From the NCBI GenBank assembly GCA_001774495.1, contig MFAE01000002.1:1-40371 (forward strand): a DNA stretch of 40,371 bases. The letters run 5' to 3'. The notes beneath the pieces are model-generated. The model ran no database searches. It was not told where the DNA came from and saw only the letters and a program-made list of their open reading frames with translations. Within the stretch, counting starts at the first letter, position 1. Each line of letters starts with the position of its first letter. Of the stretch, positions 6,361 through 31,672 are shown in pieces. The DNA comes from Candidatus Campbellbacteria bacterium RIFOXYC2_FULL_35_25 (GTDB lineage: Bacteria; Patescibacteriota; Minisyncoccia; Phycocordibacterales; UBA12079). A program made the position numbers and the translations under genes.

Positions 6361-7125
6361 ATGATTTATTCTGAAGCAGAAATAAATATCTTACGTGAAG
6401 GGGGTAAAAGACTCGCTTATGTTTTAGGTGAAGTTGCAAAAAAAACTGTTCCAGGAGTAAAAATTTTTGAATTAAATGATTATGCCGAGAAACTTATTCT
6501 GGAAGGAGGTGATACGCCTGCTTTTTTGAATTATAAACCAGAGGGGTCTGGCTTTCCTTATCCTGCAAGTCTGTGCGTTTCGGTTAATGAGGGGATTGTT
6601 CACGGTATTTCAAATGGCAACAGTAGGGTTTTAAAGGATGGTGACGTCGTTGGTCTTGATCTTGGTCTTAGACACAATGGTTTTGTTACAGACATGGCGG
6701 TAACTGTTGGAGTAGGCAAGGTAGATAATGAGTCTAGGAAGCTCATAGAAGCCACAAAACAGGCTCTCTATGAAGGAATTGGACAAGCTAGGGCGGGAAA
6801 CACAACTGGCGATATAGGCCACGCCGTAGCTGAATTTGGAAAAAAAGCCAGGTTTAATGTAGCTGAAGATTTGGGAGGTCACGGTGTTGGAAAAAATGTC
6901 CACGAAGAACCTTTCATCCCCAATTTTGGCAGAAAAGGAAGTGGAGATAAATTAAGGTCAGGTATGGTTTTGGCGATTGAACCGATGTTGAATGCGGGTA
7001 CAAAAAGAATTGTTTTAGATGATGATGGATACACTTTCAATACTGCCGATGGAAAAAAGAGTGCTCACTTTGAACACACTATTTTGATAACTAATGGGGA
7101 ACCAGAGATTTTAACAAAGATTTAA
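6361..7125 (+). CDS. map: Type I methionine aminopeptidase
   Basis: CVSVNEGIVHG, GHGVG..VHEEP, AIEPM, SAHFEHT. Confidence 0.97.
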   Translation: MIYSEAEINILREGGKRLAYVLGEVAKKTVPGVKIFELNDYAEKLILEGGDTPAFLNYKPEGSGFPYPASLCVSVNEGIVHGISNGNSRVLKDGDVVGLDLGLRHNGFVTDMAVTVGVGKVDNESRKLIEATKQALYEGIGQARAGNTTGDIGHAVAEFGKKARFNVAEDLGGHGVGKNVHEEPFIPNFGRKGSGDKLRSGMVLAIEPMLNAGTKRIVLDDDGYTFNTADGKKSAHFEHTILITNGEPEILTKI

Positions 7126-7239
7126 CCAAGACCAAGACCAAGACCAAGACCAAGACCAAGACCAAGACCAAGACCAAGACCAAGGCCAAGGCCAAGACCA
7201 AGACCAAGGCCAAGGCCAAGGCCAAGGTTAGGGTTAGGG
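7126..7239. repeat. Hexamer tandem repeat CCAAG(A/G) x17 followed by TTAGGG x2
   Basis: Read directly: 11 CCAAGA and 6 CCAAGG units at 7126-7227, then two TTAGGG. Confidence 0.95.
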
Positions 7240-7359: not shown

Positions 7360-7938
7360 ATGGAAAAAATAAAGAAAAAAAGAAAGTTACGGGTTCCTGT
7401 TAAAAAAATTATTTTGGCTACCATTGCAATAGCTGGTCTCGTATCTGTAGCTGTTGTTGCCCCAAATGCTTTGCAGGCCATCGGGTATTTTTCTGGAAAT
7501 AAGAAATATAAAAAATATGATCAAAAATATTATGTTAACAGCGTAGTTGGCGGGTTGTTAAAAAAAGATTTAATTAAACTCGAAATAAAAAATGGTAAAA
7601 AATACATTCGTTTAACAAAGAAAGGAGAGCAAGAGTTAGCCCGATTAGAATTAAATGATTTTAAAATAAAAAAGCCAAAAAAATGGGATAAAAAGTGGCG
7701 GATTGTAATTTTTGATATTAAAGAGACAAGGAAAGGTACTAGGACTATTTTAAGAAGCACATTGAGTAGATTAGGTTTTGTAAAATTACAAAATAGTGTT
7801 TGGGTATTTCCTTATGATTGCAAAGAATTAATTGTAATGATGAAATCCAGTTTATTTTTAGGTAAAGATGTCTTGTATATGACTGTAGAAAAGATAGAGA
7901 ATGATAAATGGCTAAAAGAAGTTTTTGGGTTGAAATAA
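7360..7938 (+). CDS. PaaX-family / Cas2-like protein (wHTH plus ferredoxin-like domain), common in CPR
   Basis: IRLTKKG wing, KWDKKWRIVIFDI, LGFVKLQNSVWVFPYDC. Confidence 0.8.
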   Translation: MEKIKKKRKLRVPVKKIILATIAIAGLVSVAVVAPNALQAIGYFSGNKKYKKYDQKYYVNSVVGGLLKKDLIKLEIKNGKKYIRLTKKGEQELARLELNDFKIKKPKKWDKKWRIVIFDIKETRKGTRTILRSTLSRLGFVKLQNSVWVFPYDCKELIVMMKSSLFLGKDVLYMTVEKIENDKWLKEVFGLK

Positions 7939-7980
7939 TTCTGATAAAAATGACGGCCGTCATTTTTATCAGAATTATTT
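7933..7980. repeat. 48-bp perfect palindrome downstream of the PaaX/Cas2-like gene
   Basis: AAATAATTCTGATAAAAATGACGG|CCGTCATTTTTATCAGAATTATTT; shares its core with 7285-7326. Confidence 0.9.
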
Positions 7981-17612: not shown

Positions 17613-18023
17613 ATGTCAACAGTTAATCAATTACTAAAAAAGAGAAGAAAAAAAGATCCTAGAAAACCTAAGGCTATTGCTTTGAGCAAGGGTTTTAATC
17701 TTAAGAAAAATAAACCAACAACTTACCCATCTCCTTTCAAAAGGGGGGTTTGTGTTAAAGTAACTACCAAGACTCCAAAGAAGCCTAACTCAGCAGTTAG
17801 AAAGATTGCTAGAGTTCGTCTGACAAATGGAATGGAGGTAACAGCATATATTCCAGGAATGGGACACACACTTCAAGAGCACTCAGTTGTTATGCTAAGA
17901 GGGGGAAGAGTAAAAGACGTAGGAATTCGTTATACAATTGTCCGCGGAAAATTAGATACAACAGGAGTTGAAAAGAGAAGACAGAGCAGAAGTTTGTACG
18001 GGGCTAAAAAACCAAAGAATTAG
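17613..18023 (+). CDS. rpsL: 30S ribosomal protein S12
   Basis: [23 protein letters not shown]. Confidence 0.98.
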
Positions 18024-18118
18024 TAAGTAGTTGGTAGTGAGTAGTGAGTAGCAAAAAATTTGCAAAGCAAATTTTTTAAAAAGCTGTAAACTGTGAGCTG
18101 TCAGCTGTAAACTTAAAA
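18024..18118. repeat. Heptamer/hairpin element (rpsL-rpsG)
   Basis: 4x NNNGTAG, AAAAAATTTGC-AAA-GCAAATTTTTT, 4x CTGTNAR. Confidence 0.9.
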
Positions 18119-23888: not shown

Positions 23889-23941
23889 AAATCAGCGTGA
23901 AGTTTTTTAAAACTTTGTTTTAAAAAACTTCACGCTGATTT
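23889..23941. terminator. 25-bp-arm perfect inverted repeat (terminator-like)
   Basis: AAATCAGCGTGAAGTTTTTTAAAAC-TTT-GTTTTAAAAAACTTCACGCTGATTT. Confidence 0.7.
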
Positions 23942-25639: not shown

Positions 25640-25743
25640 TTTACAGATGACAGTTTACAGTTTACAGAGCAAATTTTGGCTAAAGCTAAAATTTTCCAGA
25701 AAGAAAAACTGTAAACTGTAAACTGTAAACTGTAAACTTAAAA
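25640..25743. repeat. Heptamer/hairpin element (rplC-rplD)
   Basis: 4x NTNACAG, AAATTTTGGC-TAAA-GCTAAAATTT, 4x CTGTAAA. Confidence 0.9.
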
Positions 25744-26899: not shown

Positions 26900-26987
26900 C
26901 TAACAGATTACAGCTGACAGCTGACAGCAAAAAATTTGCGAAGCAAATTTTTAAAAAGGCTGTAAACTGTAAACTGTGAGCTGTAAG
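26900..26987. repeat. Heptamer/hairpin element (rplW-rplB)
   Basis: 4x NTNACAG, AAAAATTTGC-GAA-GCAAATTTTT, 4x CTGTRAR. Confidence 0.9.
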
Positions 26988-30618: not shown

Positions 30619-30775
30619 TAAATTTATTATTGATATAAAATAAAAAACTACCTGTACAGGTAGTTTTTTATTTTATATTGCTATCTTAGAATTTTTTATT
30701 ATATTTTGATATTATAATAGTATCCTATTTTAGGTACTTTCAGCTTTATAAATTTTTAACTTTTTACTAATTTTT

Positions 30776-31672
30776 ATGCCAGAGTTACCAGAGGTACAAA
30801 CAATCGTGAATGATTTGAATAAGAAAGTTGTTGACCAGCAAATCATTGATTTTTGGAGTGATTGGAAAAAGAATGTTCGTCCAAGTTTTTTGAAATTTAA
30901 AAAAAAAGTTTCCGGAGCAAAAATCTTGGGGGTGAGGAGAAGGGGGAAACATATTGTTATTGATTTAGGTAATAAAAACTCGATTATTATTCATTTAAAA
31001 ATGTCAGGACACCTCTTGTACAAGCCGACAGCTGACAGCTTACAGCTAACAGCTAGAAGAAATTTTGGCTCCGCCAAAATTTCTTCTAAAAATGATTATT
31101 TTGAAGAGAGGGTGAATCAATATGTGCACCATAAATTCAGTTTGAAAAGTGGAGCAACTTTGGAATTTTCAGATATGAGAAAGTTTGGGTGGCTGTGGGT
31201 TGTTGCGACTGATGAAGTGGAAAATATTAAAGAAATTAAAAAATTAGGAATTGATGCTATGAGTGAAAATTTTAGTTTAAAAATTTTAAAAGATATTTTG
31301 AAAAGAAAGGTAAAAAGTATTATAGGAATTGTTCTTTTAGATCAAGGATTAATTGCAGGAATTGGTAACATTTACCGAAGTGAAATTTTATTTGAGGCAG
31401 AGGTTAATCCAAAAAGAAAAATTTTAACACTAAAAGAAAAAGAGATTGAAAAAATTTTTAAGGCAATAAATTTAATATTAAAAAAAGCAGTAAGAATGAG
31501 GGGGACTTCTGATGTTGATTATCGTGATACAGAAGGGAAGCCTGGCAGTTTCCAAAATGTTTTGAGAGTATACGGGAGAGACGGAGAAAGGTGCTTGGGG
31601 TGTAGAGGTTTGGTAATAAGGGAAAAGCTTGGACAAAGAAGCATATTCTTTTGCCCAAAGTGTCAGAAATAA
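30776..31672 (+). CDS. mutM: Formamidopyrimidine-DNA glycosylase
   Basis: MPELPEV, HLKMSG, DMRKFG, GIGNIY..E, C-terminal Zn finger. Confidence 0.97.
   Translation: MPELPEVQTIVNDLNKKVVDQQIIDFWSDWKKNVRPSFLKFKKKVSGAKILGVRRRGKHIVIDLGNKNSIIIHLKMSGHLLYKPTADSLQLTARRNFGSAKISSKNDYFEERVNQYVHHKFSLKSGATLEFSDMRKFGWLWVVATDEVENIKEIKKLGIDAMSENFSLKILKDILKRKVKSIIGIVLLDQGLIAGIGNIYRSEILFEAEVNPKRKILTLKEKEIEKIFKAINLILKKAVRMRGTSDVDYRDTEGKPGSFQNVLRVYGRDGERCLGCRGLVIREKLGQRSIFFCPKCQK
31025..31088. repeat. Heptamer/hairpin element in frame inside mutM
   Basis: CCGACAG CTGACAG CTTACAG CTAACAG then TAGAAGAAATTTTGGC-TCC-GCCAAAATTTCTTCTA. Confidence 0.88.

What the first reader, a model, noticed from the sequence alone, without database searches (positions are those of the whole stretch)
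31025..31088. Heptamer/hairpin element translated in frame inside mutM
Seen: four CNNACAG units plus a perfect 16-bp-arm hairpin (minus-strand apex GC-GGA-GC) lie within the mutM ORF just after HLKMSGHLLY, encoding roughly PTADSLQLTARRNFGSAKISS. The heptamers match those at rplW-rplB (CTAACAG, CTGACAG). Inference: the element inserted into a tolerant loop and became protein sequence, analogous to Rickettsia palindromic elements in ORFs. This is the best evidence here that the family moves and is not just an operon spacer.
Basis: partly seen in the sequence, partly recalled or inferred. Interest (0 to 1): 0.75.

Follow-up and report, generated by a model that had tools for sequence, protein, structure and literature searches.

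The report
Repeat-and-hairpin DNA translated inside fpg
A 64-base piece of this tiny bacterium's between-gene repeat DNA (four 7-base repeats plus a perfect hairpin) sits in frame inside an intact DNA-repair gene and is read as a floppy surface loop, at a spot where related bacteria carry many different repeats of this kind or none.

Summary
Window 31025-31052 holds four tandem CNNACAG heptamers. Window 31054-31088 is a perfect 16-bp-arm hairpin. Both lie in frame in an intact Fpg/MutM gene (30776-31672).

The block is one arm plus the central hairpin of a cassette family specific to this genus. In intergenic form the cassette is: inverted heptamer arrays around a hairpin, or around a small four-helix-bundle (IVP) gene. 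The genome holds 128 period-7 arrays, against at most 13 for any other period from 4 to 12.

The block extends a beta-hairpin loop by about 15 residues relative to short-loop relatives, and AlphaFold2 models it as disordered. In 25 orthologues the loop varies from 8 to 74 residues. Rows carrying the hairpin module do not form one clade (AU p 9e-8), so gain or loss recurred. LeuRS, TsaD, a glycosyltransferase and a prepilin peptidase also carry in-frame arrays.

Transposition itself is not shown. The closest described relatives are the TAACTGA and cyanobacterial heptamer repeats, and, by analogy only, the Rickettsia palindromic elements.

This scan has noted in-frame heptamer hairpins before on other DNA: 464 notes in at least 387 genomes hold the search words. 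I rate it a new variant of a known kind, of moderate interest.

The parts
30776..31672 (+). Host gene fpg/mutM (298 aa), intact: N-terminal PELPEV, H2TH domain, C4 zinc finger
   Evidence: ORF. Pfam PF01149, PF06831 and PF06827. Invariant P2, E3, K58, M76 and four Cys. PDB Fpg matches at E 1e-45.
31025..31052 (+). Four tandem heptamers CNNACAG. They are the reverse-complement orientation of the genome's CTGTNNN arrays. They are translated as PTADSLQLT.
   Evidence: The third unit carries T at the position where the G or A of its neighbours would give an in-frame TGA or TAA (read).
31054..31088 (.). Perfect hairpin with 16-bp arms and a 3-nt loop, translated as (A)RRNFGSAKISS(K)
   Evidence: I13. 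RNA fold. The same hairpin with one compensatory pair is in G004. 25 nt are 100% identical to L016.
31070..31072 (.). Hairpin loop TCC. A roughly 95%-identical strain reads GGA here, the reverse complement, which is a loop flip.
   Evidence: table 3, contig record 22 of run X7.
26900..26987 (+). Intergenic cassette between rplW and rplB: CNNACAG-type array, small hairpin, CTGTNNN array
   Evidence: Fold -33.7 kcal/mol, z -4.7. Flanking genes.
25640..25736 (+). Intergenic cassette between rplC and rplD: TTTACAG-type array, hairpin, four CTGTAAA units ending 8 nt before the rplD start
   Evidence: 30 nt of its left array are 100% identical to the array inside the fpg of metagenome locus L036.
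18021..18111 (+). Intergenic cassette between rpsL and rpsG: TAGTGAG-type array, hairpin, CTGTNNN array, then the start codon

Best explanation
The 64-bp block is a copy of one arm (a heptamer array) plus the central hairpin of this genus's heptamer-array/hairpin cassettes.

Between genes, these cassettes are built as follows: stop codon, reverse-oriented array, hairpin or a small four-helix-bundle (IVP) gene, forward-oriented array, start codon.

Inside fpg the block is simply translated. It lengthens the loop between two beta strands of the N-terminal domain by about 15 residues relative to short-loop relatives, and by about 25 relative to Lactococcus Fpg. It most likely leaves the enzyme working.

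It survives because its length keeps the frame and because the units that fall in the dangerous phase avoid TGA and TAA.

The loop is a recurrent site of gain, loss and replacement of such modules across the family.

Shown: the anatomy, the in-frame reading, the indel relative to orthologues, the non-monophyly of module carriers, module identity across loci and genomes, and the genome-wide family.

Inferred: that the block came from an intergenic cassette by copying (transposition-like, or templated repair or conversion); that it is neutral for Fpg; and that the hairpin stays perfect through palindrome dynamics (arm-to-arm correction, loop flips) rather than through a function of its own.
For: Anatomy and frame.

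Indel: the loop spans 8-74 residues in 25 orthologues. The gap is 25 residues longer than in L. lactis Fpg (query 80-125 against chain 79-99).

Structure: AlphaFold2 mean pLDDT 82.5, but below 50 for residues 88-115, between strands 79-83 and 117-123.

Recurrent change: the six hairpin-module rows need at least 5 state changes on the tree, and holding them as one clade is rejected (AU p 9.4e-8). Filled and short sister pairs are well supported.

Copying between loci:
- The best non-self match of the block spans the array-to-hairpin junction of an intergenic cassette at G000 C11:23478-23520 (44 nt, 91%, E 1.6e-7).
- The fpg insert of metagenome locus L036 (host protein only 63% identical) is made of three modules. 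Each is 94-100% identical to intergenic copies in this genome.

Genome-wide family:
- 128 period-7 arrays, against at most 13 for any other period from 4 to 12, and 1 in a shuffle.
- Of 45 arrays within 25 nt upstream of a start, 35 are forward, 5 reverse and 5 ambiguous. Of 41 just after a stop, 27 are reverse and 8 forward.

The unit flavour tracks the genome:
- Four-unit CTGT-type arrays: 33 hits here, 0-8 in the other six genus members, and 1 of 34 genomes outside the genus.
- The AAAGTCA flavour: 0 here, but 2-9 hits in the genomes that carry it in LeuRS.

Other in-frame cases: LeuRS, TsaD, a GT4 glycosyltransferase and an A24 peptidase.

Frame filter: all fpg matches in 29 genomes are stop-free.
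Against: - No defined element ends, target-site duplication or mobilising enzyme was tied to this block.
- The hairpin alone has no other close copy in the genome, only 11-14-nt seeds.
- Six Y1-transposase-like genes exist, but their flanking hairpins are of other types.
- Short-loop relatives of other genera already have a hairpin at this codon position, kept by compensatory changes (11-17 of 17 pairs). Part of the structure may therefore be old and local rather than inserted.
- In LeuRS some arrays occupy loops of unchanged length (30 aa). That fits in-place conversion better than insertion.
- The group tested was named after I had seen the quick tree.
- Gene calls used for the orientation counts are crude: the longest ATG ORFs.
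- No expression or protein data exist.
Confidence: 0.72

Rival explanations
1. Local origin. The array grew in place by 7-nt replication slippage, and the hairpin grew by template switching at a hairpin that was already in this loop. No DNA came from other loci.
For: - Family orthologues with same-length short loops carry a hairpin at the same codons, with compensatory changes (17, 13, 15, 11 and 11 of 17 pairs).
- The outer 6 bp of the window's stem resemble that older hairpin (my reading; weak).
- LeuRS arrays sit in loops of unchanged length.
- A polymerase-linked preference for 7-nt slippage has been proposed (Mrazek et al. 2007, as summarised in the introduction of PMC4679880, read).
Against: - A 44-nt, 91% match across the array-to-hairpin junction with an intergenic cassette.
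- All three modules of the L036 insert are 94-100% identical to intergenic copies in this genome, although the host proteins are 63% identical.
- Unit flavours are shared between in-ORF and intergenic arrays of the same genome and differ between genera.
- The units within the array differ from each other, which slippage alone does not give.
Confidence: 0.15
2. The block is a working cis-element inside the gene. Candidate roles: an RNA or DNA hairpin used for processing, pausing or attenuation; an antisense copy of the hairpin-plus-forward-array module that normally precedes start codons; or a slippage-prone switch that turns Fpg off and raises the mutation rate.
For: - The hairpin is kept perfect or repaired. 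There is one compensatory pair between this genome and G004, compensatory pairs across genera, and a loop flip in a 95%-identical strain with a 12-bp stem kept.
- On the minus strand the block has the usual order: hairpin, four CTGTNNN units, CTT.
- In L036 the reading frame is shifted by one base after a five-unit array.
Against: - Several close orthologues have neither array nor hairpin here (L005, L012, L027, L003), so nothing at this site is indispensable.
- The L036 shift can equally be a slip or an error in its run of seven A, or a dead gene.
- The units here are not identical, so slippage should be rare.
- No plausible minus-strand ORF follows the block.
Confidence: 0.1
3. The block is not part of the protein. 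It would be removed from the RNA or bypassed by the ribosome, like an intron or a translational hop.
For: A strong hairpin sits in the mRNA. Hairpin-containing bypass elements are known from phage T4 gene 60 and yeast mitochondria (recalled, not checked here).
Against: - Inserts of many lengths at this site all keep the frame and lack stops in 29 of 29 genomes with a match and in 25 of 25 aligned proteins.
- The third unit avoids an in-frame stop.
- Neither constraint would apply to untranslated DNA.
Confidence: 0.03

Closest known systems
TAACTGA heptamer direct repeats of marine Beggiatoaceae, also in some Cyanobacteria and Bacteroidetes (MacGregor 2015, PMC4679880; abstract and sections 3, 15 and 16 read)
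   Same: - Short tandem 7-nt arrays at many loci.
- Most lie a few bases upstream of start codons that lack a Shine-Dalgarno site.
- They occur inside ribosomal-protein operons.
- Some lie inside ORFs, where they are read through (LSVISYQ there; LSAISYK-like and LTA-like peptides here).
- The mechanism of spread is unknown.
   Different: - Here the units are degenerate (a fixed CTGT or ACT core with 3-4 free positions) and come in many flavours per genome.
- Arrays come as inverted pairs around a hairpin or an IVP gene.
- In-ORF copies sit in internal loops of conserved enzymes. In that paper they lie mostly at protein ends or in hypothetical ORFs.
- The host is a CPR/Patescibacteria genome of 0.78 Mb.
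Cyanobacterial heptamer repeats (STRR; contiguous heptamers near start codons in Nostoc PCC 7120, bioRxiv 10.1101/2022.06.06.494920; abstract and passages read)
   Same: Tandem heptamers dispersed over the genome near start codons and promoters. A yet unidentified binding partner is suspected.
   Different: That work concerns upstream regions and reporter assays. It describes no translated hairpin-plus-array blocks in enzyme loops. The STRR unit sequences are recalled from memory, not checked here.
Rickettsia palindromic elements (Ogata et al. 2000, as summarised in PMC10969869, passage read, and in PMC3184786)
   Same: Palindromic repeat DNA inserted in frame in unrelated housekeeping genes and translated. 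It is tolerated because it lands in permissive parts of the fold.
   Different: RPEs are 100-150 bp elements of ten sequence families, each encoding a conserved peptide, and are restricted to Rickettsia. The block here is 64 bp and modular (tandem heptamers plus a short perfect hairpin). It has no high-copy near-identical family and shows rapid turnover at one site.
REP elements with their RAYT (Y1) transposases
   Same: Short hairpin repeats. This genome has six Y1_Tnp genes. At least one (G000 C6:2462-3169) is flanked on both sides by a hairpin type that also occurs in frame in two other ORFs.
   Different: The fpg hairpin is not the type that flanks any of the six Y1 genes. It is not high-copy. 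It has no GTAG or CGTC head; the head motif is taken from the title and abstract listing of PMC3733652.
Intervening-sequence-like cassettes that enclose 23S_rRNA_IVP (four-helix-bundle) genes
   Same: In this genome, IVP genes lie between inverted heptamer arrays of the same flavours as the short cassettes. This is clear for 3 of the 7 matches. Two more have inverted non-heptamer repeats. The short hairpin cassettes therefore look like gene-less versions.
   Different: The fpg block has one arm only and no gene. No activity of IVP proteins on such arrays is known.

Membership tests
Heptanucleotide tandem-repeat arrays (long simple-sequence repeats; TAACTGA type; STRR) | Three or more head-to-tail units of 7 nt | tested here: met
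   Four units at 31025-31052.
Heptanucleotide tandem-repeat arrays (long simple-sequence repeats; TAACTGA type; STRR) | Many loci per genome, with period 7 in clear excess over other periods | tested here: met
   128 arrays of period 7, against 4, 2, 13, 2, 5, 0, 0 and 4 for periods 4-6 and 8-12. A shuffle gives 1.
Heptanucleotide tandem-repeat arrays (long simple-sequence repeats; TAACTGA type; STRR) | Mostly intergenic, just upstream of start codons, with a preferred orientation | tested here: met
   Met for the family. 45 of 128 arrays lie within 25 nt of an ATG-ORF start: 35 forward, 5 reverse, 5 ambiguous (crude gene calls). The copy under study is inside an ORF.
Heptanucleotide tandem-repeat arrays (long simple-sequence repeats; TAACTGA type; STRR) | Unit sequence TAACTGA (for the Beggiatoaceae family proper) | tested here: not met
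   Units are CCGACAG, CTGACAG, CTTACAG and CTAACAG. The kind is the same; the family is different.
Rickettsia palindromic elements | Element of about 100-150 bp belonging to one of the RPE sequence families | tested here: not met
   The block is 64 bp and only its 35-bp hairpin is palindromic. No RPE sequences were compared.
Rickettsia palindromic elements | In-frame insertion in unrelated conserved genes | tested here: met
   fpg, LeuRS, TsaD, a GT4 glycosyltransferase and an A24 peptidase carry arrays. 12 of 233 perfect hairpins lie deep in open frames.
Rickettsia palindromic elements | Many copies encoding one conserved peptide | tested here: not met
   The RRNFGSAKISS-type peptide is seen only in Fpg orthologues. 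The best paralogue in the genome is a 44-nt intergenic match.
REP/RAYT | Cognate Y1 transposase gene flanked by the same hairpin | tested here: not met
   Six Y1_Tnp ORFs. Their flanks carry other hairpins.
REP/RAYT | High-copy, near-identical short palindromes with a GTAG or CGTC head | tested here: not met
   No close second copy of the hairpin. No such head next to it.
MITE | Terminal inverted repeats at both ends | tested here: not met
   Intergenic cassettes have inverted arrays. The fpg copy has only one array.
MITE | Target-site duplication | tested here: inconclusive
   Comparing filled G002 with short G003 gives no clean ends. About 23 nt of the short allele are replaced rather than flanked.
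Fpg/MutM (host gene) | N-terminal Pro-Glu catalytic start, H2TH motif, C4 zinc finger | tested here: met
   Pfam domains. Invariant P2, E3, K58 and C273, C276, C293, C296. PDB Fpg matches.

The most novel reading that the evidence does not exclude
The heptamer-array/hairpin cassettes are a live, genus-wide mobile system. Its full form carries the four-helix-bundle (IVP, Avd-like) gene between inverted heptamer arrays. Its gene-less forms use exposed hairpin tips as landing sites, including tips inside coding DNA. They leave or are replaced cleanly. Loops of core enzymes such as Fpg and LeuRS therefore act as long-term homes in which the nucleic-acid element, not the protein, is what is being maintained (perfect stems, loop flips, compensatory arms).
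Probability: 0.25. Interest if true: 0.7.

Novelty: new variant of a known kind. Interest (0 to 1): 0.5.

Why it matters
Three points make this worth recording.

First, simple 7-base repeats and short hairpins, usually treated as spacer or regulatory DNA, repeatedly become protein sequence in core enzymes of an ultra-small (CPR) bacterium. The same protein loops are reused across genera.

Second, this gives a concrete, testable route by which reduced genomes gain and lose loop sequence.

Third, it links three poorly understood things:
- heptamer arrays in front of start codons;
- perfect intragenic palindromes;
- the four-helix-bundle 'intervening sequence' genes.

Practical consequences: such blocks break metagenome assemblies (contigs end at 31022 and 31055). 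They can also mislead alignments, indel-based phylogeny and structure prediction of CPR proteins.

Tried and rejected
- Expression. The look-up of sequencing runs listed no RNA holder for the stretch, so nothing can be said on transcription.
- Population variation. Only Logan contigs could be laid. They showed no indel at the block in runs X2, X4, X6 and X7. Contigs drop rare variants, and two runs break at the repeat, so unit-number variation remains untested.
- Y1 transposases as mobilisers of this hairpin. Six genes were found, but none is flanked by the fpg-type hairpin. Rejected for this block; kept for other in-ORF hairpins.
- Reverse transcriptase as the source of the arrays. The single RT sits next to an Avd-like gene and looks like a diversity-generating retroelement. 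Variation within units is not restricted to adenines. The idea was dropped.
- 'In-ORF arrays are always in reverse orientation.' Not true. fpg and LeuRS are reverse, while the glycosyltransferase, the A24 peptidase and one TsaD array are forward.
- Clean insertion ends from the G002/G003 sister pair: not obtained.
- Literature. Searches returned no paper describing in-frame heptamer-plus-hairpin blocks in CPR enzyme loops. Subscription journals are not covered.
- The AU test group was chosen after the quick tree was seen, so its p-value is descriptive.

Full report
**Observation**

Window 31025-31088 reads CCGACAGCTGACAGCTTACAGCTAACAGCTAGAAGAAATTTTGGCTCCGCCAAAATTTCTTCTA.
- The first 28 bases are four tandem heptamers of the form CNNACAG. 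Tandem Repeats Finder gives period 7, 4.6 copies.
- Positions 31054-31069 and 31073-31088 are 16-nt arms, 100% complementary, around the loop TCC.
- The block lies in the + strand ORF 30776..31672 and is read as PTADSLQLTARRNFGSAKISS right after HLKMSGHLLYK.
- The ORF is an Fpg/MutM glycosylase by Pfam (PF01149, PF06831, PF06827) and by matches to solved Fpg structures (E 1e-45).

Chance does not explain it.
- The double-heptamer pattern occurs 13 times in the window against 0.82 expected.
- A shuffled genome gives 1-3 perfect hairpins with arms of 12 or more, none longer than 14, against 233 observed.
- The RNA fold has z -6.7.

**The family it belongs to**

The window is contig C2:1-40371 of a 782,376-bp, 15-contig genome of 35% G+C. 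Names on homologues and earlier notes place it in the Campbellbacteria (Patescibacteria/CPR).

Period-7 tandem arrays are a striking property of this genome: 128 arrays, against 4, 2, 13, 2, 5, 0, 0 and 4 for periods 4-6 and 8-12, and 1 in a shuffle. Units have a fixed core (CTGT, ACT, GCT) and three or four free positions, and they come in many flavours.

With crude gene calls:
- 45 of 128 arrays end within 25 nt upstream of an ATG-ORF start. 35 of these are in one 'forward' orientation, 5 reverse and 5 ambiguous.
- Of 41 arrays just after a stop codon, 27 are reverse and 8 forward.

The typical intergenic cassette is therefore: stop codon, reverse array, short A/T-rich hairpin, forward array, CTT plus a few A/T, start codon. 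This is seen between rplC-rplD, rplW-rplB and rpsL-rpsG in the window. The two arrays can pair through their cores into a long interrupted stem.

The genome has seven matches to the four-helix-bundle family 23S_rRNA_IVP.
- For three of them the gene sits exactly where the hairpin sits, between inverted heptamer arrays, one pair being TTTACAG/CTGTAAA.
- Two more lie between inverted repeats of another period.

The fpg block is thus 'reverse array plus hairpin', which is half of a cassette.

**Is it an insertion?**

Yes, relative to relatives.
- In an alignment of 25 Fpg proteins of 57-100% identity, the stretch after HLKMSGHLL[YF]K spans 8 to 74 residues. 11 of 25 have 10 or fewer.
- Against Lactococcus Fpg, the segment between the matched blocks is 44 residues here and 19 there.

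DNA of genus members shows the states directly:
- G003 and G001 have short loops.
- G005 has a short loop with a 9-bp hairpin.
- G004 has four CNNACAG-type units, the same hairpin with one compensatory A-T to C-G pair, and a further GC-rich module.
- G002 has worn heptamers, the hairpin and the GC-rich module.
- G006 has a different heptamer flavour and no hairpin.

Other orthologues carry separate inserts in three other loops.

AlphaFold2 with this alignment gives a confident Fpg fold (mean pLDDT 82.5, pTM 0.79). Residues 88-115 fall below pLDDT 50 and have no secondary structure, between strands 79-83 and 117-123. Catalytic P2, E3 and K58, the wedge residues and the four zinc-finger cysteines are invariant. 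The gene looks functional, and the block is best read as a floppy loop extension.

**Does it move?**

On a tree built without the insert columns, the six proteins with the hairpin-coded peptide (P0001, P0002, P0003, P0006, P0009, P0015) are scattered.
- At least 5 state changes are needed, and forcing one clade costs 138 log-likelihood units (AU p 9.4e-8).
- I named the group after seeing the quick tree.
- Well-supported sister pairs combine a filled and a short loop: P0015/P0019, P0006/P0014 and P0003/P0007.

Within this genome, the best non-self match of the block runs across the array-to-hairpin junction of an intergenic cassette at C11:23478-23520 (44 nt, 91%, E 1.6e-7). On its own strand that cassette precedes a start codon.

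The most telling case is metagenome locus L036, whose Fpg is only 63% identical in protein. It carries in the same loop an array, a hairpin and a GC-rich module, each matched by intergenic copies in this genome:
- array: 100% over 30 nt to the rplC-rplD spacer of the window;
- hairpin: 100% over 31 nt to C10:21195-21225;
- GC-rich module: 94-97% over 34-36 nt to C8:71681-71714 and C10:5813-5848.

The modules are thus far better conserved than the genes that host them.

Unit flavour follows the genome, not the gene.
- Four-unit CTGT arrays give 33 hits here, 0-8 in the other six genus members, and hits in only 1 of 34 genomes outside the genus, with 0 for the reversed control.
- The LeuRS loop between WIGKSEGA and VFTTRPDT holds CNNACAG-type units here and in G004. 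It holds AAAGTCA units in four genomes of three other genera, and AGAATTC, AGAATCA or AAGTTTC types elsewhere.
- AAAGTCA arrays occur at several loci in just those genomes and not in this one.

All this points to copying or homogenisation between loci. It does not show the mechanism.

**Other in-frame cases**

Nine of 128 arrays lie in frames open for at least 40 codons on both sides.
- By Pfam, five arrays in four further genes sit in LeuRS, TsaD (two arrays), a GT4 glycosyltransferase and an A24 prepilin peptidase.
- Twelve of 233 perfect hairpins lie in frames open for at least 50 codons on both sides.
- Two of these, in different genes, belong to the hairpin type that flanks a Y1-transposase-like gene at C6:2462-3169 on both sides.
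- In-ORF arrays occur in both orientations. What they share is avoidance of stops. In fpg, the third unit has T where the G or A of its neighbours would give TGA or TAA in frame.
- All fpg matches in 29 genomes are stop-free.
- The one exception seen is L036, where the frame shifts by one base after a five-unit array and a run of seven A. This may be slippage, an assembly error or a dead gene.

**The hairpin**

It is not merely decaying.
- A contig of a roughly 95%-identical strain spans the gene with 54 differences.
- That contig keeps the four heptamers unchanged and reads GGA for TCC in the loop, which is a flip of the loop.
- It has five changes at the outer stem that leave a 12-bp stem.

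In other genera of the family, same-length short loops carry a hairpin at the same codons. Of the 17 pairs defined on L011, 17, 13, 15, 11 and 11 are kept in five orthologues, with several changes on both sides. Across 70 orthologous genes, a perfect hairpin with arms of 9 or more lies in this loop in 11 genes and anywhere else in the gene in 4 (two pairs of loci are duplicates).

There are two possible explanations: selection on a nucleic-acid structure, or self-correction of palindromes by arm-to-arm template switching. I favour the second. Several close orthologues have no hairpin or array at all (L003, L005, L012, L027).

**Comparison with what is known**

- The nearest described phenomenon is the TAACTGA heptamer repeats of Beggiatoaceae and some Cyanobacteria and Bacteroidetes. 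They are short arrays directly upstream of start codons that lack a Shine-Dalgarno site. They include sites inside ribosomal-protein operons, with some copies read through inside ORFs, and their mechanism of spread is unknown (PMC4679880).
- Contiguous heptamers near start codons in Nostoc affect expression in reporter assays (bioRxiv 10.1101/2022.06.06.494920).
- Rickettsia palindromic elements are the classic case of repeats translated inside housekeeping genes (PMC10969869; PMC3184786). They are longer elements with defined sequences, so the likeness is functional, not familial.
- REP/RAYT and MITE membership tests fail for this block.
- My literature searches found no description of such blocks in CPR enzymes.
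- This scan has noted in-frame heptamer hairpins many times on other DNA.

**Verdict**

The thing is a translated fragment of a genus-specific heptamer-array/hairpin cassette in a hypervariable Fpg loop. It is a new variant of a known kind. The mechanism of spread and the reason for hairpin maintenance remain open.

Noticed in passing
G000 C6:2462-3169 (L108); also L105, L106, L107, L109, L110: Six Y1-transposase-like (PF01797) ORFs of 228-256 aa in a 0.78-Mb genome, each with its own flanking hairpin. The hairpin type around C6:2462-3169 also occurs in frame in two other ORFs (C6:70374-70402 and C6:119904-119930).
   Followed up: partly
L156 (G000 C8:66904-67221), L157 (C13:23522-23830), L158 (C11:12813-13121): Four-helix-bundle 23S_rRNA_IVP genes sit between inverted heptamer arrays, in the place where short cassettes have a hairpin. 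There are seven IVP matches in all.
   Followed up: partly
L163 (G000 C8:10561-11172) and L162 (C8:9980-10279): The genome's single reverse transcriptase lies next to a weak IVP/Avd-like match. This looks like a diversity-generating retroelement.
   Followed up: no
L036:601-1534: In a metagenome relative, the fpg frame shifts by one base after a five-unit heptamer array, a run of seven A, a hairpin and a GC-rich module. Removing one 7-nt unit, or one A, would restore the frame.
   Followed up: partly
L132 (G002 C8:20744-22066): The LeuRS of genus member G002 carries a roughly 211-residue extra domain at the same loop that holds heptamer arrays in relatives. Its sequence (GHSRGG motif) looks like a serine hydrolase fold. 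It is bordered by a GC-rich repeat-coded peptide.
   Followed up: no
window 23889-23941, 7933-7980, 30633-30678: Three long perfect palindromes (25-, 24- and 23-nt arms). The last lies just upstream of fpg, behind the preceding small ORF.
   Followed up: no
window 7125-7226: Seventeen tandem copies of the hexamer ACCAAG (96% matches), starting at the end of ORF 6361..7125.
   Followed up: no
A1 columns 60-83, 103-113, 222-231, 385-398: Individual Fpg orthologues (P0014, P0015/P0017, P0009) carry further private inserts in three other loops and in the zinc-finger region. Some have peptides typical of GC-rich palindromes.
   Followed up: no
G000 C10:5813-5848, C8:71681-71714, C2:59360-59393, C2:87787-87824, C5:66956-66988: A GC-rich module of about 35 nt is dispersed at five or more loci of this genome. 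It is found translated inside the fpg loop of G002, G004 and L036.
   Followed up: partly
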